From sequence record PZ445498.1: DNA of 64,000 nt, one strand, 5' to 3'. This DNA is from a phage. Shown one piece after another: positions 28,701-63,508 of the stretch. The translations under genes were made by a program, and so were the position numbers. Numbering within the stretch: the first letter of the stretch is position 1; every line of letters starts with the position of its first letter. The notes beneath the pieces were generated by a model. That model was not told the DNA's origin. It did no database searches and saw only the letters and a program-made list of their open reading frames with translations.

Positions 28701-28705
28701 AATTC

Positions 28706-29959: not shown

Positions 29960-30036
29960 GTGGCTATATCATAATTGGTTAATGATCCTGATTGTGAATC
30001 AGGCCTATGTGGATTCGAATTCTACTAGCCACCCCC
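29960..30036 (+). tRNA. tRNA-His (anticodon GUG)
   Basis: Acceptor gtggcta/tagccac, stem cctga/tcagg with loop ttgtgaa, T-arm gtgga-ttcgaat-tctac; 3' end reads cccca. Confidence 0.75.
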
Positions 30037-30043
30037 AAATATA

Positions 30044-30118
30044 GCGTCCTTATTTCAACGGAAAGAATGTAAAGCTACGAACTTTACGATCGGGGTTCGA
30101 TTCCCTGAGGATGCACCA
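30044..30118 (+). tRNA. tRNA-Arg (anticodon ACG)
   Basis: Acceptor gcgtcct/aggatgc, stem taaag/cttta with loop ctacgaa, T-arm cgggg-ttcgatt-ccctg, CCA. Confidence 0.75.
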
Positions 30119-30142
30119 ATTAACTTAAACAGGAAATAAAAT

Positions 30143-30343
30143 ATGGCTGATTTCTGCAAAGAATGCTCTATTGATATGTGGGGAAGAGATACTGGTGATC
30201 TTTCTGGTCTGATTACAGAAGCCGAAGTTAAAGAAGGCTATGGTGCTGTTGTAATCTGTGAAGGTTGTGGCATTATCCGTGTTGATCATAATGGTAAACG
30301 TCTAGAAGAACCTGATCCAATCGCCACGGTTCCTGTAGAATAA
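30143..30343 (+). CDS. small Cys-rich protein
   Basis: CKEC...CEGCG. Confidence 0.5.
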   Translation: MADFCKECSIDMWGRDTGDLSGLITEAEVKEGYGAVVICEGCGIIRVDHNGKRLEEPDPIATVPVE

Positions 30344-30351
30344 AAAATTAT

Positions 30352-30427
30352 TGGAGTGTAGCTCAACTGGCAGAGCGACGGTTTCTGACACCGTAGGTTT
30401 CTAGTTCGATCCTAGACATTCCAGCCA
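30352..30427 (+). tRNA. tRNA-Gln (anticodon CUG)
   Basis: U1-A72 acceptor tggagtg/cattcca, D-arm gctcaactggcagagc, stem acggt/accgt with loop ttctgac, CCA. Confidence 0.8.
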
Positions 30428-30433
30428 AACAAT

Positions 30434-30511
30434 TGGGGATTAGCTTAGCTTGGCCTAAAGCTTCGGCCTTTGAAGTCGAGATCATTGGTTCAAATCCAAT
30501 ATCCCCTGCCA
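30434..30511 (+). tRNA. tRNA-Gln (anticodon UUG) probable
   Basis: D-stem gctt/aagc, stem tcggc/gtcga with loop ctttgaa, T-arm attgg-ttcaaat-ccaat, CCA; 1-72 mismatch. Confidence 0.6.
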
Positions 30512-30519
30512 AACAATAA

Positions 30520-30595
30520 GCGGTTAAGCACACGGGTTGTGCCGCAGGCCTTCCAAGCCCCGCTGAGTAGGGTTCGATTCCCTCTAGCCGCTCCA
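30520..30595 (+). tRNA. tRNA, anticodon UCC (Gly) possible
   Basis: Acceptor gcggtta/tagccgc, D-arm gcac-acgggtt-gtgc, T-loop ttcgatt, CCA; anticodon stem weak. Confidence 0.5.
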
Positions 30596-30612
30596 ACTTT
30601 AAGGAAACATTT

Positions 30613-30834
30613 ATGCACGTTTTTGAGTTTCGTGATAAAAGTAACAATAAACGAGTTATTGTTATTGGAGAAACATACCTAGCATACGAACAAACTGACG
30701 GCTCTGTTATCTTGAATGATGAGAAAGCAAATTTTAGCTTTTATCCAGAAGAACCTTATGAAGAGTTTCGTACTAAGTTTCTTTTACCAGACTGGCTAGC
30801 AGTAGCCGAGCAACTAGAATCCGAAGATGGCTGA
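30613..30834 (+). CDS. hypothetical protein
   Basis: 73 aa, aaggaaa RBS. Confidence 0.5.
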   Translation: MHVFEFRDKSNNKRVIVIGETYLAYEQTDGSVILNDEKANFSFYPEEPYEEFRTKFLLPDWLAVAEQLESEDG

Positions 30835-30985
30835 TAACCTGAGACTAAAGGTTGACAAACAAAAGAAACGTGTAGAGATTGAGCTTGGTGACGAACGCCT
30901 AGCACTATCCTTCGAGTTTCTTCAGCAGTTGGCGATGACAGTAATGTCTGATAAGTCTCCTGTATTTGAAAAAGAAATCCCGTTG
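30827..30985 (+). CDS. hypothetical small protein (52 aa, below the ORF-track cutoff)
   Basis: ATG overlaps the preceding stop (ATGGCTGA); MADNLRLKVDKQKKRVEIELGDERLALSFEFLQQLAMTVMSDKSPVFEKEIPLK. Confidence 0.35.
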
Positions 30986-31001
30986 AAATGACGGGTTTAT
31001 T

Positions 31002-31076
31002 GCTCCTAAAGCATTGCTGGCGATGCAGTTGCCTTGTAAGCATCTGAACTGGGTTCGACTCCTGGTGGGAGCACCA
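31002..31076 (+). tRNA. tRNA-Thr (anticodon UGU)
   Basis: Acceptor gctccta/tgggagc, loop cttgtaa, T-arm ctggg-ttcgact-cctgg, CCA. Confidence 0.7.
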
Positions 31077-31091
31077 AATTTAAAAATTCAT

Positions 31092-31120
31092 TTGCCTTCT
31101 CTCTTATTTCTTGTTATAAT
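31092..31120 (+). promoter_or_regulatory. early promoter
   Basis: ttgcct-17-tataat. Confidence 0.6.
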
Positions 31121-31150
31121 ATTTATATAAATTAATGAGAGGGAAACCAA

Positions 31151-31444
31151 ATGAAACGTTATCTTTCTGTCGTGTTCCAAACTGGTGGTCAACGCTACAC
31201 TTATGAATTTCCTGAGTCCTGGAAAATTAAAGAAGGTGATCAAGTTGTTGTATTAACACCTCGTGAAGGCTTCAAAGTAGTAACGGTTAAACAAGTCTTT
31301 CCAAAAGATCACGAACCATCTAAGTCTATTCAGTACAAGATGATTCACGGTCTGGTACGAAAAGTACCTAGAACAGAAGTCGAAGTAGATAAAACTGGGG
31401 AAGCTAAATACCAGTATACTTCTTACTTGGATGAAATGATGTAA
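31151..31444 (+). CDS. hypothetical protein
   Basis: 97 aa, promoter 31092-31120 and shared leader. Confidence 0.5.
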   Translation: MKRYLSVVFQTGGQRYTYEFPESWKIKEGDQVVVLTPREGFKVVTVKQVFPKDHEPSKSIQYKMIHGLVRKVPRTEVEVDKTGEAKYQYTSYLDEMM

Positions 31445-31445
31445 T

Positions 31446-31521
31446 GCTCTGATAGTTCAACAGGTTAGAACAGGCGACCGATAATCGTCAAATCTTGGTT
31501 CGATCCCAAGTCGGAGTACCA
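31446..31521 (+). tRNA. tRNA-Ile (anticodon GAU); C at position 33
   Basis: Acceptor gctctga/tcggagt, D-arm gttcaacaggttagaac, stem ggcga/tcgtc with loop ccgataa, T-arm cttgg-ttcgatc-ccaag, CCA. Confidence 0.7.
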
Positions 31522-31527
31522 AATTAT

Positions 31528-31603
31528 AGTTAGTTGGCAGAGTGGTTATGCACCTCCTTCATACGGAGCGACTACAGTGGTTCAACTCCACTACTAACTA
31601 CCA
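31528..31603 (+). tRNA. tRNA with CAU anticodon (Met, fMet or Ile2)
   Basis: Acceptor agttagt/actaact, loop ttcatac, T-arm agtgg-ttcaact-ccact, CCA. Confidence 0.65.
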
Positions 31604-49548: not shown

Positions 49549-50430
49549 ATGTATAACTTTAAAGATAAACTAAGACAAAATGCTGGCAAAGGAAAAGCTA
49601 AGGAAACAAATAATATTCCTAATGCTAAAATATTACCTTTCCCTGAACTAACCCAAGAAGAAAAAGATAAACTAGCATTTATGTTCGATGCACTTCTAGG
49701 ACTGAATGGACGTTTATACTCTACGCTCTCGTTAAATGAGAAGCGTTTAGTAGAGTTCTTCGGAAAACGTTATCAAGTTACATCTAAGGGTAACGCTCTT
49801 AAAGAAGGAGAAAAACCTTACACAGTTATTAAGATTAGTGCATATGCACATCGTTTCTTAATTCGTGCGCTAGAGACAGAATACTTCACATTACCATCAT
49901 TTAGTGCATTCCACATCTTCGAAGATGAACGAATGAATATTGATGATTTATATGGAGATCGTTATCAATATTCAGGAAGTCCTTTCCATGATGCACTGAG
50001 AAGCTACCCAAATTGTTATCTTCCAATTAGAGCATCACAAGGCAAGGCAAGTGTCTTTGCAGTGTACTCAGGATCTAAAGCATCGGATCTAGAAACTTAT
50101 ATTTATAAAGAACGTAGATCTGCTATTCCAGAAGAAGCACGTTATGAAAATCCAATTCTACCAACTAAAGAAGTCAAGGAAACCAAAACTTCTACTACTC
50201 AAACAGAATCTCCTTATCTGAAGTTTGAGAAACAAGTTGGATGGGTTCTAGAAATGGGTATAGCTTCACCGCTTGCTGCAGCATTTATCAATAGGTATCT
50301 AGAAATTCCTGACGAGTTCCACACACGTTATAACACGAATATTCAGATCACAGATGAATTAATAGCTATTGCAAAAGATACACCTACTAACACTGAGGCG
50401 TATCAAAAAGCATACCAAGAGTTACTATAA
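49549..50430 (+). CDS. hypothetical protein
   Basis: 293 aa; last gene before the repeat region. Confidence 0.55.
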   Translation: MYNFKDKLRQNAGKGKAKETNNIPNAKILPFPELTQEEKDKLAFMFDALLGLNGRLYSTLSLNEKRLVEFFGKRYQVTSKGNALKEGEKPYTVIKISAYAHRFLIRALETEYFTLPSFSAFHIFEDERMNIDDLYGDRYQYSGSPFHDALRSYPNCYLPIRASQGKASVFAVYSGSKASDLETYIYKERRSAIPEEARYENPILPTKEVKETKTSTTQTESPYLKFEKQVGWVLEMGIASPLAAAFINRYLEIPDEFHTRYNTNIQITDELIAIAKDTPTNTEAYQKAYQELL

Positions 50431-50882
50431 GATCCTGCAAGTCTCGGTGCACAATACCTGTACCGAGACTCAAATACAAACTCTCGTTGACAGATAACTA
50501 AATGTATGTTATCATAACTCTATGAGTTAATAGAATTAACCATTTAGAGTTGCCACACAGAAGGTGTGGTGGTTCAGGAATCTTAAATTACTGACTTGTA
50601 GCGTAGGTTACGGAGCGACAGGACAAGTCAACAGGTAATTTAATAAAGATTACTAGAAACATCACGAGACCTTCTGGCGGGGGCAAAGCTCTATATGAGA
50701 ACCCTGGGGGATCTTATACTTATATAAAAACTGATACTGTTGAATAGATAAATTAACGTTCAAGATGATACACCGGTTGCCGCTCATCTGCTAGGATGGC
50801 ACAACACTTTCTAGTAGACTCCTAAGTTTCTAGGAAAACTCACGCATTCTAGGGCAGTTTCTCTCCAACGTTACATATCCTA

Positions 50883-50941
50883 GGGCGGTTTCCTATACAG
50901 GGCGGTTATAGGGAGGGCGGTTATAGGGAGGGCGGTTATTT
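50883..50941. repeat. short tandem repeat (gggcggttataggga units)
   Basis: Four gggcggtt cores within 60 bp. Confidence 0.8.
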
Positions 50942-50982
50942 CTAGAAGACATTTTTCCAAAACACATTTCTGGAAATTGCTA

Positions 50983-51582
50983 TCGGATTTGCACATTATG
51001 TTTCTAGAAATTTATGGTCGGATTTGCACATTGATAGGAGTCTCCAAAGTTTTTAGGAACACTGAAAATAGCAGCATTATTTCGGGCCGAAGGCCCATAT
51101 TTGCCTGAGTTTTTAGAGCCACAGGAATTTTCACTTGTCAAGCTGTTTTGCCCCCTTTTGCTAATAAAATTTCGTATAATCTCCCCGAATCTCACTTCTA
51201 GCCAAAACATCCCACATTATCCCCAAAAACGCAGCAAACCGGTGCTAAAGCACCATCACCGCTGCTCCTCCCGTAGTTCCTCCCAAAATCTCATCGGATT
51301 CGCACTTCTCCCCAAACCCACACAATCACACACCCTCCCATCAAAGTCACAAAAATCTTGTCGGATTTGCACATCTCAACACATGTCGGATTTGCACATA
51401 CTCTAGTAAATCCAGCTGGATTGCATTGCAGTTGCGGATTGCTGGAGTTTTTAGGAAAATTCATTGTCGGATTCGCACACTATAAAAATATTTCCCATCG
51501 GATTTGCACACTACCAAAAATTGTCGGATTCGCACATACACGCCCACACGTAACACCCGTGGAGCAATGTCGGATTTGCACA
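50983..51582. repeat. dispersed direct 13-mer TCGGATT(T/C)GCACA, 9 copies
   Basis: Copies at about 50983, 51018, 51294, 51361, 51386, 51467, 51498, 51524 and 51570, all on the plus strand; degenerate copies near 51413 and 51433. Confidence 0.8.
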
Positions 51583-51617
51583 AAAGCGCAGGGCAAAATG
51601 AAAATGCCCTGCCTGCC

Positions 51618-51775
51618 GAAATGCGAATGATAATGAGATTGATTCTCATTTGAAAAGTTGAATGCGAATGATAATGATTCGCGTTTAGAAAGTGGAATGA
51701 GAATGGTTATCATTTACAGAATTGAATGCGAATGAGTTGCATAATGATAATGATTCGCATTTAGAAAGGGAAGTG
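51618..51775. repeat. AT-rich repeats and palindromes built on AATGCGAATGATAATGA
   Basis: Three direct copies of gaatgcgaatga plus inverted partners (aatgcgaat ... attcgcatt). Confidence 0.75.
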
Positions 51776-51794
51776 AGAAACACTGCTATTTAAG

Positions 51795-51803
51795 TTATCC
51801 ACA
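51795..51803. promoter_or_regulatory. DnaA-box consensus TTATCCACA
   Basis: Exact 9-mer match. Confidence 0.45.
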
Positions 51804-51884
51804 GGTTTATTAACAGCACGATTTGACTTGACAAAATCCTAGCGATTTTGAGGCGTTATCAACAGACTTATTAACAGGTTATTC

Positions 51885-51904
51885 TACTGTATAAATATAC
51901 AGTA
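51885..51904. promoter_or_regulatory. LexA (SOS) box-like palindrome TACTGTATAAATATACAGTA
   Basis: Fits TACTG-N10-CAGTA exactly. Confidence 0.5.
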
Positions 51905-52274
51905 TATTCCAGCAGGAGAATAATCTAATATAGCCTTTAAACGCTCTGTAACGCAGTCTAACGCGTTTATTTTTGGAGGAGGTATTTTAATAAGGGGAAG
52001 TTTGAGGAAGACCAGAAAAAGCGGGGCCGGTAGTTGCGCCCCGTTATTATTAGCGGTAGATGTATTGTTGCCAGTAGCGGCGGATATTGTCGCCACCGTC
52101 GGGATCATTAGCAGACCTAATATTACCTATAAAAATATATAGTTTCATAACGCCATCGCTCCTAGAATGAGAATGATTATTATTAACATTGTGAAGCCAT
52201 TACCAAATCGTAAACGCTGGGAATGTTTCCCAGCGGTATTATTAGATTTATGGCTTTGTGTTTTTCGCCACCAG

Positions 52275-52623
52275 CTATTCATAAGCTGATTTCCGAAACG
52301 TTGTTTCAATACTATCCGCAGTGGATTGAATATACGCGCCTTTCATAATCAGGCGCTCTGTACACACTTTGCGGAAAATGTCAATAAATTCATTTTCATT
52401 TTCCGCTATTAACGCTTCCCCCATAACCTGAACGTCACAAGACCCAAAAGTTAAAAATTGAAACGCTAGTTCACGGGCGACAACGGCAGAAATTTTATAA
52501 TGTGCTTTGCCCTCATAGATATTAACCACGCCTTTATAAACTGGTGAAAGCTGATTTAAATAGTTTGCTAATAATGCCGGACGGCAATTAGTTACAAATC
52601 GGTTGCCCTCGTAAATTACCATT
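52275..52623 (-). CDS. hypothetical pre-early protein
   Basis: Start reassigned to the internal ATG (MVIYEGN) coupled to the upstream stop (TAAAATG). Confidence 0.45.
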
Positions 52624-52836
52624 TTATAACACTCCCCGAAACGCAGCGTAAAAGGTGGCAAAGTGTTTAACCGTTTCGGATACCAAATTGCCGCGCTTGT
52701 CAAATTTCTTTTCTGTAACACGAAAGGCGTTTTTATTGCGTGGTACATATTCAATTTTACAGTCTAGACGCTCGAACGTGTTAACATCCACCAGCTTAAA
52801 ACCTTTGGAACGGGCAAGGGAAACATTCTTTAACAT
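52624..52836 (-). CDS. hypothetical pre-early protein
   Basis: 70 aa, aaagggga RBS. Confidence 0.45.
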   Translation of the reverse strand: MLKNVSLARSKGFKLVDVNTFERLDCKIEYVPRNKNAFRVTEKKFDKRGNLVSETVKHFATFYAAFRGVL

Positions 52837-52838
52837 TT

Positions 52839-52988
52839 TTATTCCCCTTTACCAGTCATACAGCCTAACAAGTAAGAAAAACCCGCGATACCTGCTCCAA
52901 TAATAACCACGTGAACGCCGAAAGCTATTGCAAACAGTGATAAAATAGCGCCCAAGATACCTGCTAGAACTGATCGAAAAATAACCAT
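52839..52988 (-). CDS. small hydrophobic peptide (49 aa, below the ORF-track cutoff)
   Basis: aggag RBS; MVIFRSVLAGILGAILSLFAIAFGVHVVIIGAGIAGFSYLLGCMTGKGE. Confidence 0.35.
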   Translation of the reverse strand: MVIFRSVLAGILGAILSLFAIAFGVHVVIIGAGIAGFSYLLGCMTGKGE

Positions 52989-53036
52989 TTTATTAGCTCC
53001 TAGAAATTAGGGGCGAAAGTAACGCCCCGTTATTAA

Positions 53037-53264
53037 TTACATTAAAACAATTTTTGCCGCTTGCTTTTTGGTGCAGTGGTTAGCTTTCAATTCATCCAGC
53101 AAAAATCCGGCTGTTTGCTGATCAATCTTGTCATTGTCGTAAAGCCCCTGAATGGTAACATAAGTTTTACCAATCCCAAATTCAGAAACCATAACGCTGA
53201 CAATAGCGGGAACGGATACCCATTCCATACCGTTAAAAATTGCAGAAGATGATGAATATACCAT
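53037..53264 (-). CDS. hypothetical pre-early protein
   Basis: 75-aa ORF downstream of the 333-aa gene on the same strand. Confidence 0.4.
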   Translation of the reverse strand: MVYSSSSAIFNGMEWVSVPAIVSVMVSEFGIGKTYVTIQGLYDNDKIDQQTAGFLLDELKANHCTKKQAAKIVLM

Positions 53265-53384
53265 TTTAACGCCTCCTAGAAATCAGGGAAAAATTTTCAA
53301 TCCACCGTTTCGGTGTAAAGGCATTATAACAAAAAAGGCCGCCATAATAGGCGACCTTTACAAAACTTTACATTAGACTAATTA

Positions 53385-54386
53385 TTATTCGCTTTCAGCG
53401 TTTTGGGTAAAGGTGGAAATGTCAATACCTTTTACCATTTCGTCGATCATTTCAGCGATGTTAAAAGATTGTACCATTTCTAGCATTGCCGCTTCCATTG
53501 CCGCGCCTGCTACCGCTTTTGCTTTCGCGTTATTCGGGGCGTACTGGTCAACTGCTACACTCAGCAGGTTAGCAATAACTACCCGACCGATAGGCGTATC
53601 AATATAACCCTTGATAATAAACGGCGCTTTTTTCGCCGCTACTTTTGTGATTTGAGTCAGTGCAATTTTACCTGCTTCCAGTTTAGCAGCGTTTACAACG
53701 GCGGATTTATTAGCGGCAACGATAGAAGATACTTTAGACATAATATTTCCTTTATTTTCAGTAGTTTGCGCATTTGCGCTTGAAGTTTGAGATTGTACAG
53801 CCTGTTTTGTTACAATGTCAAGCGGTAAAAGTGTAAATCCAGCATTTGCAACGTTTGATTCATTCCCATACTCTAAATAATCGTTAGGAATCAACATGTT
53901 ACCGCTAGCGCGTTCAAAACACAATACGCCAGTTGTTTCGATTGCGTCACTATCCGCACCTTTATAACTGGATGATAATTCACGCCAGATACTATTTAAT
54001 AACGATCCGACACTATCCAGCCGGATATTATTTACTTTTGTTGCTGTTACCTGCTCCTTTTCTTGCACGTTATATAATCGCGCAATGTAACCACTATGAG
54101 ACTCATTATAGCCAACAATGATAAAATCAATATCAGTTCCACGACTATTACGGAAAATATGATAATCACGGTTGAAAATTACTAGCGCCCTTGTCTGGTC
54201 TAGTAATAGCGTGAAATCATCGACTGAATAATGAGTATCATTATTATCTAAAATATCCTCGTGAATCTTTTCGATAATAGTAGCCGTATGTTGTAGGCTT
54301 GCCGCGCTACTACCATCTAGCAGGTTGCGCAAACTACCTTTTAAAATAGTGGCGTTTGCTGGTACTGCAATTCTTACAGTAGACAT
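53385..54386 (-). CDS. hypothetical pre-early protein (333 aa), function unknown
   Basis: Largest leftward ORF of the higher-GC block; no motif I recognise. Confidence 0.6.
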   Translation of the reverse strand: MSTVRIAVPANATILKGSLRNLLDGSSAASLQHTATIIEKIHEDILDNNDTHYSVDDFTLLLDQTRALVIFNRDYHIFRNSRGTDIDFIIVGYNESHSGYIARLYNVQEKEQVTATKVNNIRLDSVGSLLNSIWRELSSSYKGADSDAIETTGVLCFERASGNMLIPNDYLEYGNESNVANAGFTLLPLDIVTKQAVQSQTSSANAQTTENKGNIMSKVSSIVAANKSAVVNAAKLEAGKIALTQITKVAAKKAPFIIKGYIDTPIGRVVIANLLSVAVDQYAPNNAKAKAVAGAAMEAAMLEMVQSFNIAEMIDEMVKGIDISTFTQNAESE

Positions 54387-54644
54387 TTCTTTACCTCCCT
54401 CGTTAATCGGTGAGTGAATGATATAGATATTTGTTCATTAGGGGCAAGAAAAAAGAAAAGGTTTTTTATTCCTTGCCTACTGCCTGTTTTTATGATATCC
54501 GCGCGTTTTCTATTTCTAGCACTCTGTAAGTGTACACAAGGCTTTATTATAATAAGGGCAGCAGTGAGAAAACGCCGTGTAGCGCGTTCTAGGCCGCTTA
54601 AATTTGATTGCGGTTGTTACTGCTACCATTCTACCCTGTATATT

Positions 54645-54664
54645 TATACAGTAGGATAACCTGT
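54645..54664. promoter_or_regulatory. LexA box-like palindrome CTGT-N8-ACAG
   Basis: cctgtatatttatacagtag in the divergent intergenic region. Confidence 0.45.
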
Positions 54665-54673
54665 ATATAAGTC

Positions 54674-54682
54674 TGTGGATAA
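54674..54682. promoter_or_regulatory. DnaA box (TGTGGATAA, reverse complement of TTATCCACA)
   Basis: Exact 9-mer; 8/9 matches also at 54723-54731 and 55008-55016. Confidence 0.45.
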
Positions 54683-55494
54683 GTCGCCAAAACGTCGCCT
54701 ATTGCGTCAAGTTATTTTGTGCTGTGGATAGCTTTGTGCATAACCTAAATGATAGTGGTTCTCACTTAGCCCGATAGTTTCTCATAGTTATTATTTCTCA
54801 TTAATTTATGTGTATATTATATATTATGAAATAGTTAGTTGGCTAATAGATTTTTAGAGTATTAATAGTCTGCTAACTGTTTCGGCTGTTACAATCCACC
54901 AGCGTGATTATCATCCTAGCGATTATTAGTCTGCTAATGCTCTGATGCACGTCCAGACTTATTTGTCAATGAAAAATAACAGCAGAAAATACTTTTTTGA
55001 AAAATCAAGTGGATAACTCATTAAATTTCATTTTTGCTTTTTGTATAAGTTATTAACAGGGTCTAAAACGCTCTGTAACGCATTCTAAGCGCCTCAAAGG
55101 AAAAGATAGGCAATCATAAGGGGTACACCGAGAAAACCTCACCACGAGGATTTTAGATTTTGTCAAGTACCCTAGAGCAGATATAAATGAAAAAATTACT
55201 TGCTAAAATGGTTGTTTTGGTGTTATTCGCGCGCCCGTTTCATTAAATTTAATGCGCCGCTGGACGTTTGCGAGTAGTGGTTTTCTTTACGTTTCTTTAC
55301 AAAAATACGCTTGCGCCCTTCTCGGTATTCTCCTATTATTTATCACGTAGGGCGGCAATGACGAACTACACGGCGGGGATAACAGCGATTGACAGTCTGT
55401 TTGACCTTTCAAAACCCTGCCATGCTCTTTAAAAATTAGGGAACATCTTAAAGCCTATCGGCGGTAAACTTAGATATTATAAGGAATCGACGAT

Positions 55495-55704
55495 ATGAAA
55501 CAAACGCTTTTGATCACTGGCAAGCCTATCAAGTCGCTTGATAGCAGAACAAAAAATTTGTTGACAGTAGCGCAACGATCTGTAAAATACAGATTCAAGC
55601 AATACAAGAAAGGCAAGCAACAAGGGCTGGAAATGGTGTGGCGTAATATAATGATTGATTTATATAACTCCCATCAAATCGAAAAAAGTTTAAAAAACGA
55701 TTGA
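55495..55704 (+). CDS. hypothetical pre-early protein
   Basis: 69 aa, basic. Confidence 0.45.
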   Translation: MKQTLLITGKPIKSLDSRTKNLLTVAQRSVKYRFKQYKKGKQQGLEMVWRNIMIDLYNSHQIEKSLKND

Positions 55705-55870
55705 CACGCTAGCCGATAGGTTTTAAGATGTTCCCCGTAGTAACTGCTCTTTAACAATTTGGAAAAACGGTAATGTTTAGGCTAACTCCTAGCGGATTAT
55801 AATCTAATAGCGTTTCAAAGTATCGAGGCGCTATTGTGGAATAATCCCCCAATAAACCGGAGTATTAAAA

Positions 55871-56122
55871 ATGCAAAACGTTATCACCGCACCGAAAGTA
55901 GGTCAATCCGTTTTTATTCCTTTCGTTACTAAAACGGATGAATTAACTGGAAAAGCTGAACGTATTAAAGGTGCGGCGCTTGATCCCTTTGATAAAATTG
56001 AAGCGGTCTATGCGGAAACGGAACGCAGTAATCACGGCAAGCCGATTTATAACGTCCGTGTTAAATCTGGCGACGTTGTAAAGATCATTCAGAAGGATGA
56101 TAAATGGCAAGCCATAGCATAA
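55871..56122 (+). CDS. hypothetical pre-early protein
   Basis: 83 aa, ggagta RBS. Confidence 0.5.
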   Translation: MQNVITAPKVGQSVFIPFVTKTDELTGKAERIKGAALDPFDKIEAVYAETERSNHGKPIYNVRVKSGDVVKIIQKDDKWQAIA

Positions 56123-56222
56123 ATTAGTGTTACTTTTATATTCCCCTGAAATATGGGGAATATATGGATTAACATTAGTTAATCATAATCCCTTAATTAA
56201 TAATTGAATGGAGTATTAAATT

Positions 56223-56639
56223 ATGTCTAACGTTAAAACCGAAAAAACCGCAAAATTTTCTTGGAACGAAGAAAACACCGAAAAGGCTGTTTCTATGTAT
56301 TCTGAAATGGTCGCTAAAAGCGGAATTGAATTTGCTAACACTGACGGCTTAAAAGAAATCGCCGCCGCCGTTGGCGCGGCGTCCCCTGTCTCTGTACGTT
56401 CTAAACTGACCAGCGCAAAAGCATACCAGAAAAGCGACAAGCCGCGCAAAGTTGGCGGCGGTAGCTCAATCCGTAAAGCTCACTATGTGCGCGTTATCGC
56501 TAAACACGCCATTGATTCAGGCATTATCAAAGACGCCGATGATCTGGCAAGTTTGGAAAGTGCAAAACTGGAAACGCTGGAAGCCGTGGCGCAATTGTTA
56601 GGCGTTGCCGATGAAGTAAAACAGGCCGCAGGCGAATAA
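56223..56639 (+). CDS. hypothetical pre-early protein (about 15 kDa; possible A2-like)
   Basis: 138 aa; host-like codon usage; size and position next to the A1-like gene are the only basis for the A2 suggestion. Confidence 0.5.
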   Translation: MSNVKTEKTAKFSWNEENTEKAVSMYSEMVAKSGIEFANTDGLKEIAAAVGAASPVSVRSKLTSAKAYQKSDKPRKVGGGSSIRKAHYVRVIAKHAIDSGIIKDADDLASLESAKLETLEAVAQLLGVADEVKQAAGE

Positions 56640-56672
56640 ATTTAATCAGCGGGGAATATTCCCCGCTATAAT
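56640..56672 (+). terminator. hairpin after the pre-early 138-aa gene
   Basis: cagcgggg-aatatt-ccccgctat. Confidence 0.45.
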
Positions 56673-56678
56673 TTCCCT

Positions 56679-56894
56679 TTGACCGGAGTTATTAAAATGA
56701 TCTTCTTTCCTAGTGAATCCCTCATTCTAGGCTTGTTTATTATGGCGGCCTCATTATTATTCGCTTATTTTCAAAATGATTTAGATTCATATTATTTTAA
56801 GCGTAAATCTAAATTCGCAAAGAGTTTAGGTCTTATTTGTTTTATTGCCGCCGTTGCTCTTGGTGTAAGTTCTAGCCTAATGCCGATTAGTTAA
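56679..56894 (+). CDS. small membrane protein
   Basis: 71 aa, two TM helices. Confidence 0.45.
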   Translation: MTGVIKMIFFPSESLILGLFIMAASLLFAYFQNDLDSYYFKRKSKFAKSLGLICFIAAVALGVSSSLMPIS

Positions 56895-56991
56895 ATGTTG
56901 CAAATTATAACGCTGTAAATAAACGGCGTTATATTTGGCAATATTGCCAGCTTTAAAATGTTTTAAATCCCTTTAATGGAGTTAAATTAAT

Positions 56992-58656
56992 ATGAATATT
57001 TCCGCAGAAAAACAGTCTCAGATCACTAAACTTGCCGCTGATTTTAATTTCTACGGTAAGCGTTTACGCGCTACCAAACTTGAAGTTTGCGACGATATTT
57101 CAAAAGCTGTTTATGTTACGCCGAAACATTCAACGTCAATTTGTGACTGGCTGGAAGCAAATAAACCAGCGAAACCGAAAGCGGCAAAAGCCGAAAAGGC
57201 GATTAAAAACGATGATCGCCCAGAGGCGGCGGGAATTGTTTCTAGCACCGTTGAGCAATGGGAAGTTAAATCCGGTAAACGCTTTATTATTACCTCGATT
57301 CAGAATAATACTTTCCCGCATAAAAACTTTTTAGCAAGTCTGGAAAAATTCGCTGAATATATCGGCGCTGAATTGCTAATCAGTAAATTCATTTATAATA
57401 AAAATGGATTCCAGAATGGGGAAGGCGGCGAAAAAATCAAATATGATCCCGCATTTGACAAATATATTTGCGAGAAAAACGTATTTTTAAATAACCGCCG
57501 CTTTGCTTTCATGGCTGAAATTAACGTTTTGCCAACGGCTGATTATCCGCTTTCAGGATTCGCAGAAACCGCCACCGCTTTAAATATCGAAGGTCTGGCA
57601 ATTGGTCACGCAAAAATTACCGCTGAAAGTGTGCCAGCGTTAAAAGGTGAAGTAGTACGCCGTATGTACTCCACCGGAACGGCTACACTTAAAAACTATA
57701 TTCAGCAGAAAGCAGGTCAAAAAGCTGAGGCGCTGCATAATTTCGGCGCTTTGCTGGTAGAATTTGACGACGACGGCGAATTTTTTGTTCGCCAGCTTGA
57801 AACAATGGACGAAAGCGGAATGTTCTATGATTTGAATGTTTGCGCTATACCAACCGGATGTTTCAAAACATCTGATCATGTTTTAGGCTTGCAATATGGC
57901 GATATTCACGCCGAAAAATTAGATGATGATTGTGCCGTTGCGTCATGGGTGGGCGAAAATAGCTTGCTTGATATTCTTAAACCAAAATATCAGTTTATCC
58001 ATGATGTGCATGATTTTACATCGCGCAATCATCATAATCGCGCCTCTGGTGTATTCCTAGCTAAACAGTATGCCGCCGGACGTGACAAAGTTATTGACGA
58101 TCTCATTGATACCGGTCGCGTGTTGGAGTCAATGGAGCGCGATTTTTCTCAAACAATCATCGTGGAATCCAATCATGATCTAGCGTTATCCCGTTGGCTT
58201 GATGATCGTAATGCTAACATTAAAGACGATCCAGCCAACGCGGAACTATATCACAGCCTAAACGCTGCGATTTATGCGGCTATTGCAAAACAAGATGATA
58301 CCTTTAACGTATTGGATTATGCGCTTAGAAACGTTGCAGGTTGCGAATTTAACGCTATTTTCCTGACTACTGACCAATCGTTTAAAATTGCAGGAATTGA
58401 ATGCGGTGTGCATGGTCACAACGGCATTAACGGCAGTCGGGGCAATCCTAAACAGTTTAAGAAGTTGGGACGCCTCAACACTGGCCATACTCACACGGCG
58501 AGCATTTATGGCGGCGTGTATACCGCTGGCGTTGCTGGTAGTCTCGATATGGGTTACAACGTTGGCGCTAGTAGCTGGACGCAAACGCATTTAATTACCT
58601 ATGCAAACGGGCAACGTACTTTGATTGATTTCAAAAACGGTAAATTCTTTGCATAA
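56992..58656 (+). CDS. A1: A1-like pre-early protein with C-terminal metallophosphoesterase (Mre11/SbcD-like) domain
   Basis: 554 aa; GDIHAE, ESNHD, GVHGHNG and GHTH motifs in the C-terminal half; size matches my recollection of T5 A1. Confidence 0.65.
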   Translation: MNISAEKQSQITKLAADFNFYGKRLRATKLEVCDDISKAVYVTPKHSTSICDWLEANKPAKPKAAKAEKAIKNDDRPEAAGIVSSTVEQWEVKSGKRFIITSIQNNTFPHKNFLASLEKFAEYIGAELLISKFIYNKNGFQNGEGGEKIKYDPAFDKYICEKNVFLNNRRFAFMAEINVLPTADYPLSGFAETATALNIEGLAIGHAKITAESVPALKGEVVRRMYSTGTATLKNYIQQKAGQKAEALHNFGALLVEFDDDGEFFVRQLETMDESGMFYDLNVCAIPTGCFKTSDHVLGLQYGDIHAEKLDDDCAVASWVGENSLLDILKPKYQFIHDVHDFTSRNHHNRASGVFLAKQYAAGRDKVIDDLIDTGRVLESMERDFSQTIIVESNHDLALSRWLDDRNANIKDDPANAELYHSLNAAIYAAIAKQDDTFNVLDYALRNVAGCEFNAIFLTTDQSFKIAGIECGVHGHNGINGSRGNPKQFKKLGRLNTGHTHTASIYGGVYTAGVAGSLDMGYNVGASSWTQTHLITYANGQRTLIDFKNGKFFA

Positions 58657-58708
58657 TTAAATTTAATCGGCGGTTGAAATATGCCGCCATTAATAAAAGG
58701 ATAATTAA

Positions 58709-58987
58709 ATGACGATTAAAATTAATCTTCCATCTAGTAAAAATATGTCTGATACATATGCCATTGATAATATCGGGCATGGCACTGTATACCGTAATAT
58801 AAAAGATGGTGACTGTTATATTTATCAAAATCCGATAAATGGTCATTCTTATATAATTGAATCAGGGGATTTTTATTCCTTTGAAACTGATTATGAGGCG
58901 AGGGATTATTTGCAGGAACAAGATATTCCCGATGTGTGGAAAGAAACAAATTTAAACTTTGTTGTAAGTTTAGAAGTCAATAAATAA
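58709..58987 (+). CDS. hypothetical pre-early protein
   Basis: 92 aa. Confidence 0.5.
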   Translation: MTIKINLPSSKNMSDTYAIDNIGHGTVYRNIKDGDCYIYQNPINGHSYIIESGDFYSFETDYEARDYLQEQDIPDVWKETNLNFVVSLEVNK

Positions 58988-59023
58988 ATTAATCCCGTAA
59001 TTAAATAATCTGGAGTCATAAAC

Positions 59024-59416
59024 ATGAAAAACCAAAACATTCCTTTTGATCGCGCTACTTCTTCCATCGTTCTAGTTTACTCTAATGGCGAACGTTATCA
59101 CGTCGAAGCGGGGCAAGTTAATTTTGATTTGCTGAATTATAACGCCGCTTTGCAGGTTACTACCTTTGCTTATGATACCGGCAAAGTGGCAAGCCATACG
59201 AAAGCAAAAGGCGTTTACGCTGATACTTTGACAGTGCAAACAATTATTATTGACGCTGTAAAATCAGGTCTAGCGTTTGCAGTTGTCGCGCCATGCCCCG
59301 CTTGCCTTGATAATGCTCTTATGTCTGCAAAGGTCTACACTTGCGCGGGGATTCGTTCCAGCGTATCAGGTGAGGATATTAGTTTTATCGCTGATGCGTT
59401 GGCGTATGGTCTTTAA
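59024..59416 (+). CDS. hypothetical pre-early protein
   Basis: 130 aa, followed by a hairpin at 59437-59462. Confidence 0.5.
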   Translation: MKNQNIPFDRATSSIVLVYSNGERYHVEAGQVNFDLLNYNAALQVTTFAYDTGKVASHTKAKGVYADTLTVQTIIIDAVKSGLAFAVVAPCPACLDNALMSAKVYTCAGIRSSVSGEDISFIADALAYGL

Positions 59417-59436
59417 TAGTTAATTTATTATTACCC

Positions 59437-59462
59437 GCTTATAAATAGCGGGTAATGCTGAA
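59437..59462 (+). terminator. hairpin in the pre-early region
   Basis: acccgcta-taaa-tagcgggt. Confidence 0.45.
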
Positions 59463-59492
59463 TTAACTACCCTTAAATGGAGAATGTAACAA

Positions 59493-60197
59493 ATGAATCA
59501 AGTCAACATGAATATTACCCGCGCTTTCCCGCATATTTCCCGCGTTATGATTTGGGATTTAGACGGAACGATTATAAATTCTTTCCATCGTGTAGCGCCT
59601 TGTTTTGATGGCAACGGTAATTTAGATTTAGCTAAATATTCCCGTGAAGCCTGCAAACATGATTTAATTATGCAGGATTCTTTATTGCCGTTGGTTGAAT
59701 ATATGCGCCAATGTATGAATGATGCAAATACTTTAAATATTATTTGTACCGCGCGCCTTATGTCTAAAAGCGCTTACTTTTATTTGCGTAAACAAGGCTT
59801 GCGAGGGCGCGGAAATAGCAATATCCGCGTATTCTCCCGCGATACATTACACAAATACTTTGAAGCGGATAAGGTTAGCGAAATATATCATAGTAAAGAC
59901 GCTGTATACAAAAGCTATTACTTTGAACTATTTAAACAGCTATATCCGAACGCTGATTTTACGATGATTGATGATCATAAAGGCGTATTATCGGCGGCGG
60001 CAAGTGCTGGATTCAAAACACTGGACGCCCAAGCCGTTAACGATATCCTATCAATCGGCGTAGCATTGATCGGTGAAACCTTTATTGATGAATCGTTAGA
60101 TGATGATAACGATTATCAATTCCTAGCCGAACGTTTAAAAATGTGTTGGGAAGGTATGACCGAGGAAGAACGCGCGGAATATAGTACCACACCGTAA
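59493..60197 (+). CDS. dmp: HAD-family 5'-deoxyribonucleotidase (dmp-like)
   Basis: HAD motif I VMIWDLDGTIINS; position in the pre-early block as for T5 dmp. Confidence 0.6.
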   Translation: MNQVNMNITRAFPHISRVMIWDLDGTIINSFHRVAPCFDGNGNLDLAKYSREACKHDLIMQDSLLPLVEYMRQCMNDANTLNIICTARLMSKSAYFYLRKQGLRGRGNSNIRVFSRDTLHKYFEADKVSEIYHSKDAVYKSYYFELFKQLYPNADFTMIDDHKGVLSAAASAGFKTLDAQAVNDILSIGVALIGETFIDESLDDDNDYQFLAERLKMCWEGMTEEERAEYSTTP

Positions 60198-60390
60198 CAA
60201 TTCATTGATAAATTAAAAGTTGCCTAACAATTAAAAATAAAATAGTCACACTGTGTAATGATAACATGGTGTGACTATTAGCTTGCTAAGTACCGGGGCG
60301 GTAATGAGACTCATTCTCATCTAGGGAACCTCTGGGCCCACCTTCATGTGTAATCTTATGAGATTTCGAGAATTGGTAATTAGCGCTAAC

Positions 60391-60636
60391 TTAGGAGGAA
60401 CACCGGTCTACCGGCTTGTCTCCTGATTCTGACATACGAAATCTCCTCCGCGACGCCCGAGATCCATCCGACCACTCTCGCTCAAACTCCGCACGTTTCT
60501 CCGCAAACCTCCGCTCTCTTTCCGAAAGCTCCCGCGATACTCCCGCAACATATTCACGATGTTTGTTAATCGCCCCGAGTGTTCCGAAGATTCCAGCAAG
60601 CACCCCGATAATGAAGATAGCTACAAAGCTAAACAT
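60391..60636 (-). CDS. small membrane protein
   Basis: 81 aa; N-terminal TM helix then charged tail. Confidence 0.4.
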   Translation of the reverse strand: MFSFVAIFIIGVLAGIFGTLGAINKHREYVAGVSRELSERERRFAEKRAEFEREWSDGSRASRRRFRMSESGDKPVDRCSS

Positions 60637-60823
60637 CTAATTCCCTCTCAAGTTGGTGAATACGTGCCCGATCATTACGTTGGGAGTCCAGTAATTTATC
60701 CATATTAATATTCAGCTGGGTGACTTTATCCTCTAGCCGCTGTATGCGATTACGGTGTGACGTCATATATCCAACAATCCAGACAAGCCATACTACAAGT
60801 GTAATAAGTCCTAACCAATCCAT
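60629..60823 (-). CDS. small membrane protein with coiled coil
   Basis: 64 aa; TM helix then coiled coil. Confidence 0.4.
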   Translation of the reverse strand: MDWLGLITLVVWLVWIVGYMTSHRNRIQRLEDKVTQLNINMDKLLDSQRNDRARIHQLERELDV

Positions 60824-61032
60824 TATTTATCTCCCCGCAGCTTACGTTCTATACGAGCTAAATGGTTATCTAAGATGCACTGCCCGATAATTACCACAAC
60901 TAGTAATGCAATAATCACTACTTCCATTATAACCACCCCGCCATAGCCGCTAACCAAAAGAGTACAAAGATAAAGAATAACACAGTTCCGAATCCGAAAC
61001 TATTTATCCAACTTTCGTACACTTCCCCACGT

Positions 61033-61311
61033 CTATTCTTTCTTCTGTCGTCTGACATCTCTTTGCTTCTCCTGTAGTCCTGGTATTTGGAATATCCTAG
61101 CAATTGCACGAACCATTATGACTGTCCCGATAAGATCCATTACTTCATCGAAGCAGGCTTCTTCTAGTAAGAAGGATGTTCCCATCACGTCTTCTATTGT
61201 ATCTTCTATGACGTCTTGAATGATTTCGTTAATTGCATCATGTATTGCTTTAGTCCTGGGATCTATTTCAAAGTTAACAGGTTCCTGAAAGGACTTTTCT
61301 TCATCTTGCAT
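61033..61311 (-). CDS. hypothetical acidic protein
   Basis: 92-aa ORF. Confidence 0.4.
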   Translation of the reverse strand: MQDEEKSFQEPVNFEIDPRTKAIHDAINEIIQDVIEDTIEDVMGTSFLLEEACFDEVMDLIGTVIMVRAIARIFQIPGLQEKQRDVRRQKKE

Positions 61312-61385
61312 TGTGTTTGCTACCTGTACCTCATCCCAGAAATAAAAATTTTTGTTTACTTCGAGATCTTTTTAATTTATACTAA

Positions 61386-61652
61386 TTACAAGTATCCAGA
61401 TTGTTCAAGATTAAATTTACAATCACCGTATTTTAAGTCGAATTGTGATAAGTCCCACCAACCGAATTTAGTACGCATCTGTACTTTAGGGAAACGATAT
61501 CCTACTTCACGAACATCTCGGATTGTTAAGCTATAGTGCTGTGCTCCGGTAGCCCATGAAGTTTTTACATAGGCTACACAAAATGGTTTAGGTTGTGGTG
61601 CACATCCAGACAACATCGTTACAGCAGCTAAAGCGATTAGTAATTTTTTCAT
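61386..61652 (-). CDS. llp: Llp-like lipoprotein (receptor-blocking superinfection-exclusion candidate)
   Basis: MKKLLIALAAVTMLSGC lipobox; small protein divergently transcribed from the receptor-binding protein gene, as described for T5 llp/oad. Confidence 0.6.
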   Translation of the reverse strand: MKKLLIALAAVTMLSGCAPQPKPFCVAYVKTSWATGAQHYSLTIRDVREVGYRFPKVQMRTKFGWWDLSQFDLKYGDCKFNLEQSGYL

Positions 61653-61735
61653 TTTAGTTCTCCAGTTCAATTTATAAATATATTATAACAAAATAATAGG
61701 AACAGAGCAACTACATTTTTAACTTAGGAGATTAT

Positions 61736-63508
61736 ATGGGTTTTTTCGCAGGAAAGTTTAGTGATGGTAAAACAGTGTTATCACTAACAAATAATAATGG
61801 TGGAGACACCAATGAGCATTACAGTCCTGGGGGTAACACAATATTTCACTCTGATATGCCCTTCGTTCTAGTAGATGGAACATATGAGGCTGCTCTAGGT
61901 AACGCTGGTAATGGATATTTTGTTTGTGCGATGCCCCCTGATATCATTAATATGAAGTCTAATGATCCTGGTAGAGTAATCCTTACTGCTATTGAGATTA
62001 ATGGTACACATAGGGGATTTCTAAACGGTACACAATCGCAGGTAGGTCAGTATCTTACTTTTGCAGAAGAGCCCTCACGAGCATTTGCTGCTGTAGGACT
62101 AAGTTCCGCCTTTGCTATTGGGGATAGTTTAGCTAGTGGTACTTATATATACAATAGTTCAATAGGTCATGAAGAATCTATAGCACGTCAAGGTACAGGG
62201 GGTACACTAATTCAGGGTTCTGATTTTGGTATAGTAAGGCCAGGTGGCTTTGTACCTGCAGGCGAAGCTATTGCGGGAGCTTATGACTTACTAGGCTTCC
62301 CTAAAGGGTCTAGTACTGTACCTTTGGATGGCGGAAATGCTAAATACTGGGATCCTAACTGGTATAACCCTATTGGGTCTGCCGGTAGGGGGCATAATCA
62401 TTTTTATGTATGTAGCTCTAACATTCGTAGCTACATCGGAAAGAAAAGAGAAGTTCCTGCGAATACCAACGTATTCTACAATCCCAGTAAACTAGTTTAC
62501 GCATGTAGAGGGTCCGCTAGTAACATGGCTAGTCAGTCTGTTAAGACCGTTTATGTTCAGGATTGGTATAATATCACTCCGACTAAAGTTATTTGGTATG
62601 TACTGAATCTACGTTACTCAAATGGTAATATAAGTGTTTCTGGAACCCCATTTACTGGCTCTGATATTCTTATATCTCCTTCAAACTTTACTATTAAAGG
62701 AGTTAGTCTCCCTAACACTGGATATAAGTTCATTAACCAGAATGCTTTTGGAAACTTGGGTTATCGTCCCGATATGGAGTATGTGGGTAATAATGCCGCG
62801 TATACTGGAGTTTTTGGCGATACAACCGCCAGATGTGAGTTCATTGGGTCTAATAATGGTAGTCTATGGTCCCCTGTAAACTATGGTGGTGCTGCCTCCC
62901 AGATTAGTATCTACAAATTTAACGCAGGTAAGCAGTGGTACGTAGATACTAATACTAACTCTATTGGTAATGAACATGGGGCTGTGTGGAGTCCAAGTAC
63001 AGTTCCTCTCCGATTATTTCCAAATAACGTGGCTAGTACATATGTTGGAGATGATATTACTCCTTCATACCCCGGTACTGGAGATTACTATCTTCCTCTA
63101 TCAACTGTTTGGTTAGGGTTACCTAACGCCCATTCTACTATCATCCTAACTAGCGAAGTTATCATGGGTAACATTAATACTGCCGGACAACCAATTCGTA
63201 CGTATGCAGGTATTGCATGGCAGGTACAGGGTAGACGTCAGCAGAGTTATACTGCAGGTGACGGAGTATTCCACCAAATATTGACTTTACCACCCGGACA
63301 TCTAGTACCCTATCATGGGACTTCTTCTTATAGCTATTGGCAAGTATGGGCTAGTAGTTCAGATATGGAGTTTCGTAGAAATGGATATATCTACACAGTA
63401 AAGAACCTTGGTAATGGTAACGTTGAGTTTGGTGTTATTATACATGCTGGATCTCAGGCAGCTGTTTTCTTACCAAGACTACGTGTAACAGTTCAACGCC
63501 TAACCTAA
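61736..63508 (+). CDS. oad: receptor-binding tail protein, pb5-like
   Basis: 590 aa; N-terminus [41 protein letters not shown] resembles the T5 pb5 N-terminus as I recall it; the rest is divergent. Confidence 0.7.

What the first reader, a model, noticed from the sequence alone, without database searches (positions are those of the whole stretch)
50431..60300. Pre-early (first-step-transfer) module sits between the early region and the llp/RBP genes: collapsed or permuted terminal repeat
The block is higher in GC (about 45 %), lacks the ttgcta-17-tataat promoter family, and carries an A1-like 554-aa metallophosphoesterase protein and a HAD-type dmp-like nucleotidase, which I recognise as hallmarks of the T5 terminal-repeat-encoded pre-early genes. 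In T5 that repeat is present at both genome ends. Finding one copy sandwiched between early genes and the receptor-binding module is what a short-read assembly gives when the two terminal repeat copies collapse. The true physical ends would then lie near 50.4 kb and about 60.3-61.3 kb in this window.
Basis: partly seen in the sequence, partly recalled or inferred. Interest (0 to 1): 0.5.

Follow-up and report, generated by a model that had tools for sequence, protein, structure and literature searches.

The report
Collapsed T5-type terminal repeat
This is the single retained copy of the roughly 9.2-kb terminal repeat (first-injected, pre-early gene block) of a T5-like Salmonella/E. coli phage, sitting inside the sequence because the two identical genome ends were merged; this is a common and already described way for such genomes to appear in databases.

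Summary
The window is a T5-like phage (Demerecviridae, closest to Epseptimavirus), reverse-oriented relative to T5. The block is the homologue of the T5 terminal repeat. It has the same genes in the same order: dmp, A1, A2, hdi, T5.011-015. It also has the same injection-stop region: DnaA-box inverted repeats, nine DRD repeats and the major nick site.

Five relatives deposited with both repeat copies (T5, HASG4, EscoHU1, vB_SenS-3, NBSal002) all place their genome ends at window 51116 and 60337 (one base further for T5 and HASG4). The window runs unbroken across both points, from early genes on one side into llp and the receptor-binding gene on the other. This is the one-copy, concatemer-junction layout that assemblers give for long direct terminal repeats. 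At least 81 GenBank records show it, and Davison (2020) describes it.

One boundary is off by about 0.7 kb: 51.1 kb, not 50.4 kb. The stated 45 % GC is wrong: the block is 39.7 %, like its surroundings. The lack of TTGCTA-17-TATAAT promoters, the A1 metallophosphoesterase fold and the HAD motifs of dmp hold up.

The finding is ordinary and already known. Direct proof needs reads.

The parts
51116..60337 (.). Single copy of the direct terminal repeat (FST / pre-early module), 9,222 bp; reverse-oriented relative to the T5 record
   Evidence: The ends of five two-copy relatives align to these two positions. There is no second copy in the window.
51115..51116 (.). Inferred right physical terminus of virion DNA (the last base of the genome pairs with 51116). 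In this sequence it is the junction with the unique early-side DNA
   Evidence: The last base of T5, HASG4, EscoHU1 and vB_SenS-3, and the first base of NBSal002, all align to 51116. Context ...CCTGTGGCTC|TAAAAACTCAGG has 88 of 100 columns invariant from -59 to +40.
60337..60338 (.). Inferred left physical terminus, the end that enters the cell first. In this sequence it is the junction with the llp-side unique DNA
   Evidence: The first base of EscoHU1 and vB_SenS-3 and the last base of NBSal002 align to 60337. T5 and HASG4 start one base further out. The conserved sequence TCTCGAAATYTCATAAGATTACACATGRAGG lies just outside the repeat.
50431..51115 (.). Unique non-coding spacer between the last early ORF and the repeat; carries 2 DRD repeats and a GGGCC-GAAG-GGCCC hairpin
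   Evidence: It aligns with the DNA just right of the left repeat in the relatives. Repeats are shown.
50983..51581 (+). Nine copies of TCGGATTYGCAC (the DRD repeats of T5 repeat region 3), 2 outside and 7 inside the repeat
   Evidence: 9 clustered copies, with 0.4 matches expected by chance in the whole window. Davison 2020 (10.1101/866236, section 3.3.1) describes nine DRD copies and the overrun into unique DNA.
51583..51594 (+). Homologue of the T5 major single-strand interruption site (AAAA^GCGCAGGGC)
   Evidence: The T5 feature at 9748/9749 aligns here with the motif intact.
51771..51902 (.). IRD'-spacer-IRC' arm of the injection-stop region, with paired DnaA boxes TTATCCACA-ggt-TTATTAACA and TTATCAACA-gac-TTATTAACA
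   Evidence: 132-nt inverted repeat, 75 % complementary to 54636-54767. Sequence. The layout is as in Davison 2020, section 3.3.3.
54636..54767 (.). IRC-spacer-IRD arm (T5 repeat region 2)
52284..54386 (-). Homologues of T5.015, T5.014, T5.013, T5.012 and T5.011 (333 aa, DUF7566), transcribed away from the dmp-A1-A2 operon
   Evidence: tblastn with T5 proteins gives 56-90 % identity. Pfam DUF7566 at E 2e-139.
55552..55614 (+). Homologue of the T5 pre-early promoter P-H22 (TTGACA-16-TAAAAT)
   Evidence: 83 % identity to the T5 feature 4799-4873. The promoter scan scores 11 of 12.
55358..56122 (+). Homologues of T5.009, hdi (T5.008; 55495-55704) and T5.007 (55871-56122)
56223..56639 (+). A2 DNA-binding protein gene
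   Evidence: 89 % identity to T5 A2. PHROG 1725.
56679..56894 (+). T5.005 homologue (small membrane protein)
56992..58656 (+). A1 gene, with a metallophosphoesterase-fold domain
58709..59416 (+). Homologues of T5.003 and T5.002
59493..60197 (+). dmp, a HAD-type 5'-deoxynucleotidase gene; ends 10 codons early (Q235 stop)
60391..61652 (-). Unique DNA that adjoins the right repeat in virions: small membrane-protein genes (T5.159-162 homologues) and llp/cor (61386-61652)
61736..63508 (+). Receptor-binding tail protein gene (pb5/oad type)
   Evidence: PHROG 4815 at E 1e-259. Colinear with vB_SenS-3 gene 202.
49549..50430 (+). First gene of the unique region next to the left repeat (T5.018 homologue)
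   Evidence: 78 % identity.

Best explanation
Window 51116-60337 is the one retained copy of the long direct terminal repeat of a T5-like phage. In the virion the DNA is linear and carries this 9.2-kb block at both ends. The left end is at window 60337/8 and reads towards lower coordinates. The right end is at 51116. Merging the two identical copies yields a circular-looking sequence in which the repeat lies between the early genes and the llp/RBP genes. The merge could come from the assembler or from the depositor. Opening that circle at an arbitrary point puts the block inside the record. The same order exists in replicating concatemers, where neighbouring genomes share one repeat. Inferred by homology to T5, not shown here: the dmp end enters first. 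Transfer pauses in the injection-stop region, roughly 51.6-51.9 kb plus its partner at 54.6-54.8 kb, which holds the DnaA-box pairs and the DRD repeats. Host RNA polymerase then reads TTGACA-type pre-early promoters such as the P-H22 homologue. A1 (metallophosphoesterase fold), A2 (DNA binding) and dmp (HAD nucleotidase) take over the host, and A1 and A2 allow the rest of the DNA to enter. At packaging, terminase cuts at the two conserved boundary sequences and the repeat is duplicated.
For: The block is 89-94 % identical to hundreds of T5-like phages. T5 left-repeat genes are present in the same order and orientation. Repeats in five two-copy relatives measure 9,451-10,321 bp. Their outermost bases map to window 51116 and 60337, or one base further. 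The window is colinear with the inner junction of the left repeat across 51116 and of the right repeat across 60337. Both boundary contexts are conserved from T5 to this phage. The signatures of the injection-stop region are present. The early-promoter family is absent and a P-H22 homologue is present. At least 81 GenBank records hold the same contiguous layout. Davison 2020 (10.1101/866236, section 2.3) attributes misplaced dmp/A1/A2 to assembly of the long repeats. PMC5557969 states that assemblers place the first base of such phages at random.
Against: There are no reads, so depth and read starts cannot be checked. Only one copy is visible because only 64 kb is available. Four of the five reference records have perfectly identical repeat copies. 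Their ends may have been set by analogy with T5, so they are not five independent measurements. Only vB_SenS-3 has copies that differ (8 differences), which suggests independent assembly of its two copies. Repeat length varies among relatives (8.1-12.9 kb, Davison 2020), so boundaries can move, although the boundary sequences here are intact.
Confidence: 0.9

Rival explanations
1. The layout is the real one in packaged DNA. In this phage the pre-early module is internal and the ends lie elsewhere, or the genome is circularly permuted by headful packaging.
For: Nothing positive. The sequence alone cannot exclude it because no reads are available. The window reads without a break across both junctions.
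Against: Both terminus contexts are conserved to the base with phages whose records end there. Two-step injection needs the pre-early genes at the leading end (established T5 biology; 10.1101/866236). The injection-stop region is intact and in its usual place relative to the boundary. Every Demerecviridae genome examined here with defined ends has the repeat at its ends (PMC10644984 for BF23).
Confidence: 0.02
2. The repeat is collapsed as proposed, but its inner edge is at about 50.4 kb. The repeat would then be about 9.9 kb and include the non-coding spacer.
For: The DRD repeat array and other conserved non-coding DNA continue to about 50.98 kb, outside the mapped boundary. Repeat lengths differ among relatives.
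Against: In all five two-copy relatives the repeat stops at the homologue of 51116. The homologue of 50431-51115 is present once, next to the left repeat only. 50431 is simply the base after a stop codon.
Confidence: 0.05
3. The sequence was assembled from intracellular or metagenomic concatemeric DNA, so the one-copy junction is a true molecule rather than a merge of two ends.
For: Concatemers of phages with direct terminal repeats carry one repeat between unit genomes (general knowledge; the generation of repeats by synthesis at staggered nicks is summarised in PMC5557969). The sequence would be identical to what is seen.
Against: The sequence cannot distinguish this from assembler collapse, and the conclusion about the virion ends does not change. 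Most related records come from purified phage lysates (host and source columns).
Confidence: 0.03

Closest known systems
Left/right terminal repeat of Escherichia phage T5 (NC_005859, 10,219 bp; first-step-transfer DNA)
   Same: Same genes in the same order and orientation: dmp, T5.002, T5.003, A1, T5.005, A2, T5.007, hdi, T5.009, T5.011-015. Same boundary sequences, same injection-stop architecture, same nick site and a P-H22 promoter homologue. About 80 % DNA identity.
   Different: It is 9,222 bp rather than 10,219 bp. It has no hegG HNH insertion and no detectable T5.016/T5.017 homologues. dmp ends 10 codons early. It is present once and internally here, instead of twice at the ends.
Terminal repeats of Epseptimavirus phages vB_SenS-3 (MT004791), EscoHU1 (LC659915) and NBSal002 (MN994501)
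   Same: 88-97 % DNA identity, and identical mapping of both ends to 51116 and 60337. The llp-side junction is 98.8 % identical to vB_SenS-3.
   Different: Those records show both copies at the ends (9,451, 9,914 and 10,321 bp). The window shows one copy flanked by unique DNA.
One-copy, arbitrarily opened GenBank records of T5-like phages (e.g. S116, ende, PMBT22, vB_EcoS-26175 I-V)
   Same: Identical early genes - repeat - llp/RBP layout in records of 110-116 kb; at least 81 records cover 80 % or more of window 40000-64000 in one place.
   Different: None in kind. They differ only in sequence (about 88-94 % identity).
Concatemer junction of T7-type phages with direct terminal repeats
   Same: One repeat copy lies between unit genomes, with fixed cut sites on either side of the repeat (PMC5557969, introduction).
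   Different: The T7 repeat is 160 bp and non-coding. This one is 9.2 kb and holds a whole temporal class of genes and the injection-stop signal.

Membership tests
T5-type long direct terminal repeat / first-step-transfer module (Demerecviridae) | Sequence present as an identical direct repeat at both ends of virion DNA | not testable with these tools
   Only 64 kb of an already assembled sequence is available, with no reads. There is one copy in the window.
T5-type long direct terminal repeat / first-step-transfer module (Demerecviridae) | Homology and colinearity with the T5 left repeat, with dmp, A1 and A2 in that order from the outer end | tested here: met
T5-type long direct terminal repeat / first-step-transfer module (Demerecviridae) | Boundaries coincide with the genome ends of relatives that carry both copies | tested here: met
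   Five relatives map to window 51116 and 60337 (one base further for T5 and HASG4).
T5-type long direct terminal repeat / first-step-transfer module (Demerecviridae) | Injection-stop region at the inner end: 131-nt IRD'-spacer-IRC' with its inverted partner, DnaA boxes in pairs 3 bp apart, and a DRD repeat array overrunning the boundary | tested here: met
   compared with 10.1101/866236, section 3.3.
T5-type long direct terminal repeat / first-step-transfer module (Demerecviridae) | Flanked by the first early genes on the inner side of the left copy and by llp/oad on the inner side of the right copy | tested here: met
   T5.018 homologue at 49549-50430; T5.159-162 homologues, llp and RBP at 60.4-63.5 kb.
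T5-type long direct terminal repeat / first-step-transfer module (Demerecviridae) | About twofold read depth and read-start peaks at both boundaries | not testable with these tools
   No reads are available.
Calcineurin-like metallophosphoesterase superfamily (for A1) | Conserved metal-binding motifs DxH, GDxxD, GNH(D/E), H, GH and GHxH | tested here: met
   G303-D304-x-H306, D338-x-x-D341, N394-H395-D396, H474-G475 and G498-H499-x-H501 are invariant in 45 homologues of 41-90 % identity.
Calcineurin-like metallophosphoesterase superfamily (for A1) | The phosphoesterase beta-sandwich fold | tested here: met
   [not shown]
Calcineurin-like metallophosphoesterase superfamily (for A1) | A match to the Pfam Metallophos models above the gathering score | tested here: not met
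   No Pfam hit even at E 10. PDB sequence and profile searches were empty. Membership therefore rests on motifs and fold.
Haloacid dehalogenase (HAD) phosphatase superfamily (for dmp) | Motif I DxDx(T/V) near the N-terminus, motif II S/T, motif IV DD | tested here: met
   D22-L-D24-G-T26, C-T86-A-R and M-I-D160-D161; conserved in T5, EscoHU1 and vB_SenS-3 dmp.
Haloacid dehalogenase (HAD) phosphatase superfamily (for dmp) | A significant profile match to HAD families | tested here: inconclusive
   PF00702 at E 0.098, 13.5 bits against a cut-off of 26.4. PDB HAD chains at E 0.33-0.46. PHROG 415 'polynucleotide kinase' at E 7e-55. No structure was modelled.

The most novel reading that the evidence does not exclude
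The internal position is real. In this phage the pre-early block would not sit at the ends of packaged DNA, so the two-step injection programme would have to start from a different end or work differently. Nothing in the sequence supports this; it simply cannot be excluded without reads. A milder reading is also open. The conserved non-coding islands at both cut sites, and the DRD array that straddles the right cut, may be the terminase recognition signals for making T5-type long repeats. As far as I know these signals have not been defined.
Probability: 0.02. Interest if true: 0.6.

Novelty: already known. Interest (0 to 1): 0.08.

Why it matters
It matters mainly for annotation. The true genome would be about 9.2 kb longer than the record. 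The pre-early genes are present twice per virion. Gene order in the record does not reflect the order of entry into the cell. Placing the ends at 51116 and 60337/8 allows the record to be re-opened and the second copy added, and it gives primers or read positions for a quick check. It adds nothing new to T5 biology.

Tried and rejected
- GC shift: none. The block is 39.75 % against 39.5 % elsewhere.
- Second or partial copy of the block elsewhere in the window: none.
- Shared motif between the two cut-site contexts, in either orientation: the best local score is 12, below the shuffle mean of 14.8.
- Conservation peak specific to the termini: both sites lie in conserved islands, but nearby non-coding DNA is often as conserved, so this is not independent proof.
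- Pfam for A1 and dmp: nothing significant.
- PDB sequence searches with the single A1 sequence and with a 45-sequence profile: nothing relevant.
- Single-sequence AlphaFold model of A1: unusable, pLDDT 33. It was replaced by the alignment-based model.
- Literature search for how the EscoHU1 ends were determined: no primary description found.
- T5 llp, hegG, T5.016 and T5.017: no homologue at the expected places. hegG matches only other HNH genes elsewhere in the window.
Full report
**What the window is.** The block 50431-60300 matches 549 phage records, almost all T5-like phages of Salmonella, Escherichia and Klebsiella. The best matches are 92-94 % identical over more than 90 % of its length, and the genes beneath them are annotated A1, A2 and dmp. 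The nearest relatives belong to Epseptimavirus in the Demerecviridae. The window runs in the opposite direction to the T5 reference. Upstream it carries a + strand early region with 26 tRNA genes at 18.4-31.6 kb.

**Checking the observation.**
- Gene order from left to right:
  - the last early ORF, 49549-50430 (78 % identical to T5.018);
  - a 685-bp non-coding stretch;
  - leftward genes homologous to T5.015 through T5.011;
  - rightward genes homologous to T5.009, hdi, T5.007, A2, T5.005, A1, T5.003, T5.002 and dmp;
  - leftward small membrane-protein genes (T5.162-159 homologues);
  - llp/cor, 61386-61652, with lipobox LSGC;
  - the receptor-binding protein gene, 61736-63508.
- A1 (56992-58656):
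  - It is 89 % identical to T5 A1 and matches PHROG 1745 at E 5e-243.
  - Pfam and PDB sequence searches see nothing.
  - The classical metallophosphoesterase motifs are invariant across 45 homologues of 41-90 % identity.
  - The T5 literature also calls A1 a predicted metallophosphatase (10.64898/2026.04.02.716235).
- dmp (59493-60197) is 90 % identical to T5 dmp. It has the HAD motifs DLDGT and DD, but only sub-threshold profile matches to HAD families.
- The promoter family TTGCTA-N17-TATAAT is real: 25 sites with at most one mismatch against 1.09 expected, nearly all on the + strand. None lies between 46.1 and 61.68 kb. Instead the block carries TTGACA-type sites, including a clear homologue of the T5 pre-early promoter P-H22 at 55552-55614.
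- The GC claim fails. The block is 39.75 % GC and the rest of the window 39.5 %. No 9.87-kb window exceeds 40.9 %.

**Where the repeat begins and ends.** I fetched both ends of five relatives deposited with two repeat copies: T5, HASG4, EscoHU1, vB_SenS-3 and NBSal002. I measured their repeats by self-comparison as 10,219, 10,266, 9,914, 9,451 and 10,321 bp.
- The outermost base of the right repeat aligns to window 51116 in all five. For NBSal002, deposited in the opposite orientation, this is its base 1.
- The outermost base of the left repeat aligns to 60337 for EscoHU1, vB_SenS-3 and NBSal002, and one base further for T5 and HASG4.
- The inner junction of the left repeat aligns continuously across 51116 into the early genes.
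- The inner junction of the right repeat aligns continuously across 60337 into llp, RBP and beyond. Identity to vB_SenS-3 is 98.8 % over 60100-61800.
- Both boundary contexts are conserved from T5 to this phage. At the right end...CCTGTGGCTC|TAAAAACTCAGG has 88 of 100 invariant columns around the cut. At the left end, a conserved block of about 40 nt lies immediately outside the repeat.

The repeat homologue is therefore 51116-60337, 9,222 bp. The left limit (50.4 kb) is merely the end of an ORF, about 0.7 kb outside the repeat.

**Internal landmarks.** The inner end of the block has the structure described for the T5 injection-stop region (10.1101/866236, section 3.3):
- Nine TCGGATTYGCAC (DRD) repeats lie at 50983-51581, two of them beyond the boundary. 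T5's repeat region 3 likewise overruns into unique DNA.
- A 132-nt inverted repeat pairs 51771-51902 with 54636-54767.
- DnaA boxes occur in pairs three bases apart: TTATCCACA-ggt-TTATTAACA and TTATCAACA-gac-TTATTAACA.
- The context of the T5 major nick is intact at 51583-51594.

**Interpretation.**
- A linear T5-type genome laid out correctly has nothing outside its repeats. A repeat flanked on both sides by unique DNA arises when the two copies are merged into a circle and the circle is opened elsewhere. The same order exists in concatemers.
- This is routine. At least 81 GenBank records of 110-116 kb contain the same contiguous layout over 80 % or more of window 40000-64000.
- Davison notes that many GenBank T5-like records have dmp, A1 and A2 in the wrong place because assembly software handles the large terminal repeats poorly (10.1101/866236, section 2.3).
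- The PhageTerm paper states that assemblers place the first base of such phages at random, and that the region between the termini shows doubled coverage (PMC5557969).
- BF23, another relative, has a 9,743-bp repeat determined from reads (PMC10644984).

**Mechanism, by homology with T5; not shown here.**
- The end at 60337/8 enters first, and transfer pauses at the injection-stop region.
[quoted passage not shown] A1 is needed for host DNA degradation. dmp dephosphorylates dNMPs.
- At packaging, terminase cuts at the two boundary sequences and the repeat is duplicated.

**Caveats.**
- No reads are available, so depth and read starts are untested.
- Four of the five references have perfectly identical repeat copies, and their ends may have been set by analogy with T5. 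Only the vB_SenS-3 copies differ (8 differences). The five mappings are thus not fully independent.
- Repeat length varies in the family.
- I found no motif shared by the two cut sites. Conservation around them is high but not unique in the region.

**Verdict.** The feature is a known kind of record layout for a known genome structure. It has practical value for annotation and little scientific surprise.

Noticed in passing
window 50983-51581 (+): Nine TCGGATTYGCAC repeats straddle the inferred right cut site at 51116, with 2 outside and 7 inside the repeat. They match T5's DRD repeats. Their position across the cut makes them candidates for a packaging or terminase signal as well as for the injection-stop role proposed in the literature.
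   Followed up: partly
window 51057-51175 and 60338-60380: Non-coding islands are conserved from T5 to this phage at both cut sites. The left-end island lies entirely outside the repeat, so it is present once per genome. The two islands share no motif with each other.
   Followed up: partly
window 60195-60197: dmp has a TAA where T5 and EscoHU1 have CAA (Q235), which removes the last 10 residues. The downstream codons still read QFIDKLKVA, so the change looks recent. vB_SenS-3 also has a variant C-terminus.
   Followed up: partly
window 1070-46091: There are 25 sites of the TTGCTA-N17-TATAAT promoter family (1.09 expected), 22 of them on the + strand, often with a shared AAATTTCTG-like spacer end. 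The family stops at 46.1 kb, about 5 kb before the repeat.
   Followed up: partly
window 50487-50515 (+): A near-consensus promoter-like site (TTGACA-17-TATCAT, with TG extension) lies in the unique spacer downstream of the last early ORF and points into the repeat. No obvious ORF follows it. Its conservation was not checked.
   Followed up: no
window 51583-51594 (+): The sequence context of the T5 major single-strand interruption (AAAA^GCGCAGGGC) is conserved exactly. This suggests the phage carries the same site-specific nick.
   Followed up: partly
[not shown]
   Followed up: no
window 51004-52108 (-) and 54400-55300: Small ORFs and long non-coding stretches inside the repeat have no T5 protein match. 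The T5 hegG HNH gene and T5.016/T5.017 are absent, which accounts for much of the roughly 1-kb shorter repeat.
   Followed up: partly
L001/L003 (MT004791.1 vB_SenS-3): The annotated repeat_region (9,455 bp) is 4 nt longer than the stretch that is actually duplicated (9,451 bp). The two copies differ at 4 mismatches and 4 gaps, unlike the perfectly identical copies in the other four references.
   Followed up: yes
window 18394-31603 (+): A cluster of 26 tRNA genes, including three tRNA-Met and two each of Lys, Leu, Ser, Arg and Gln, as is typical for T5-like phages.
   Followed up: no
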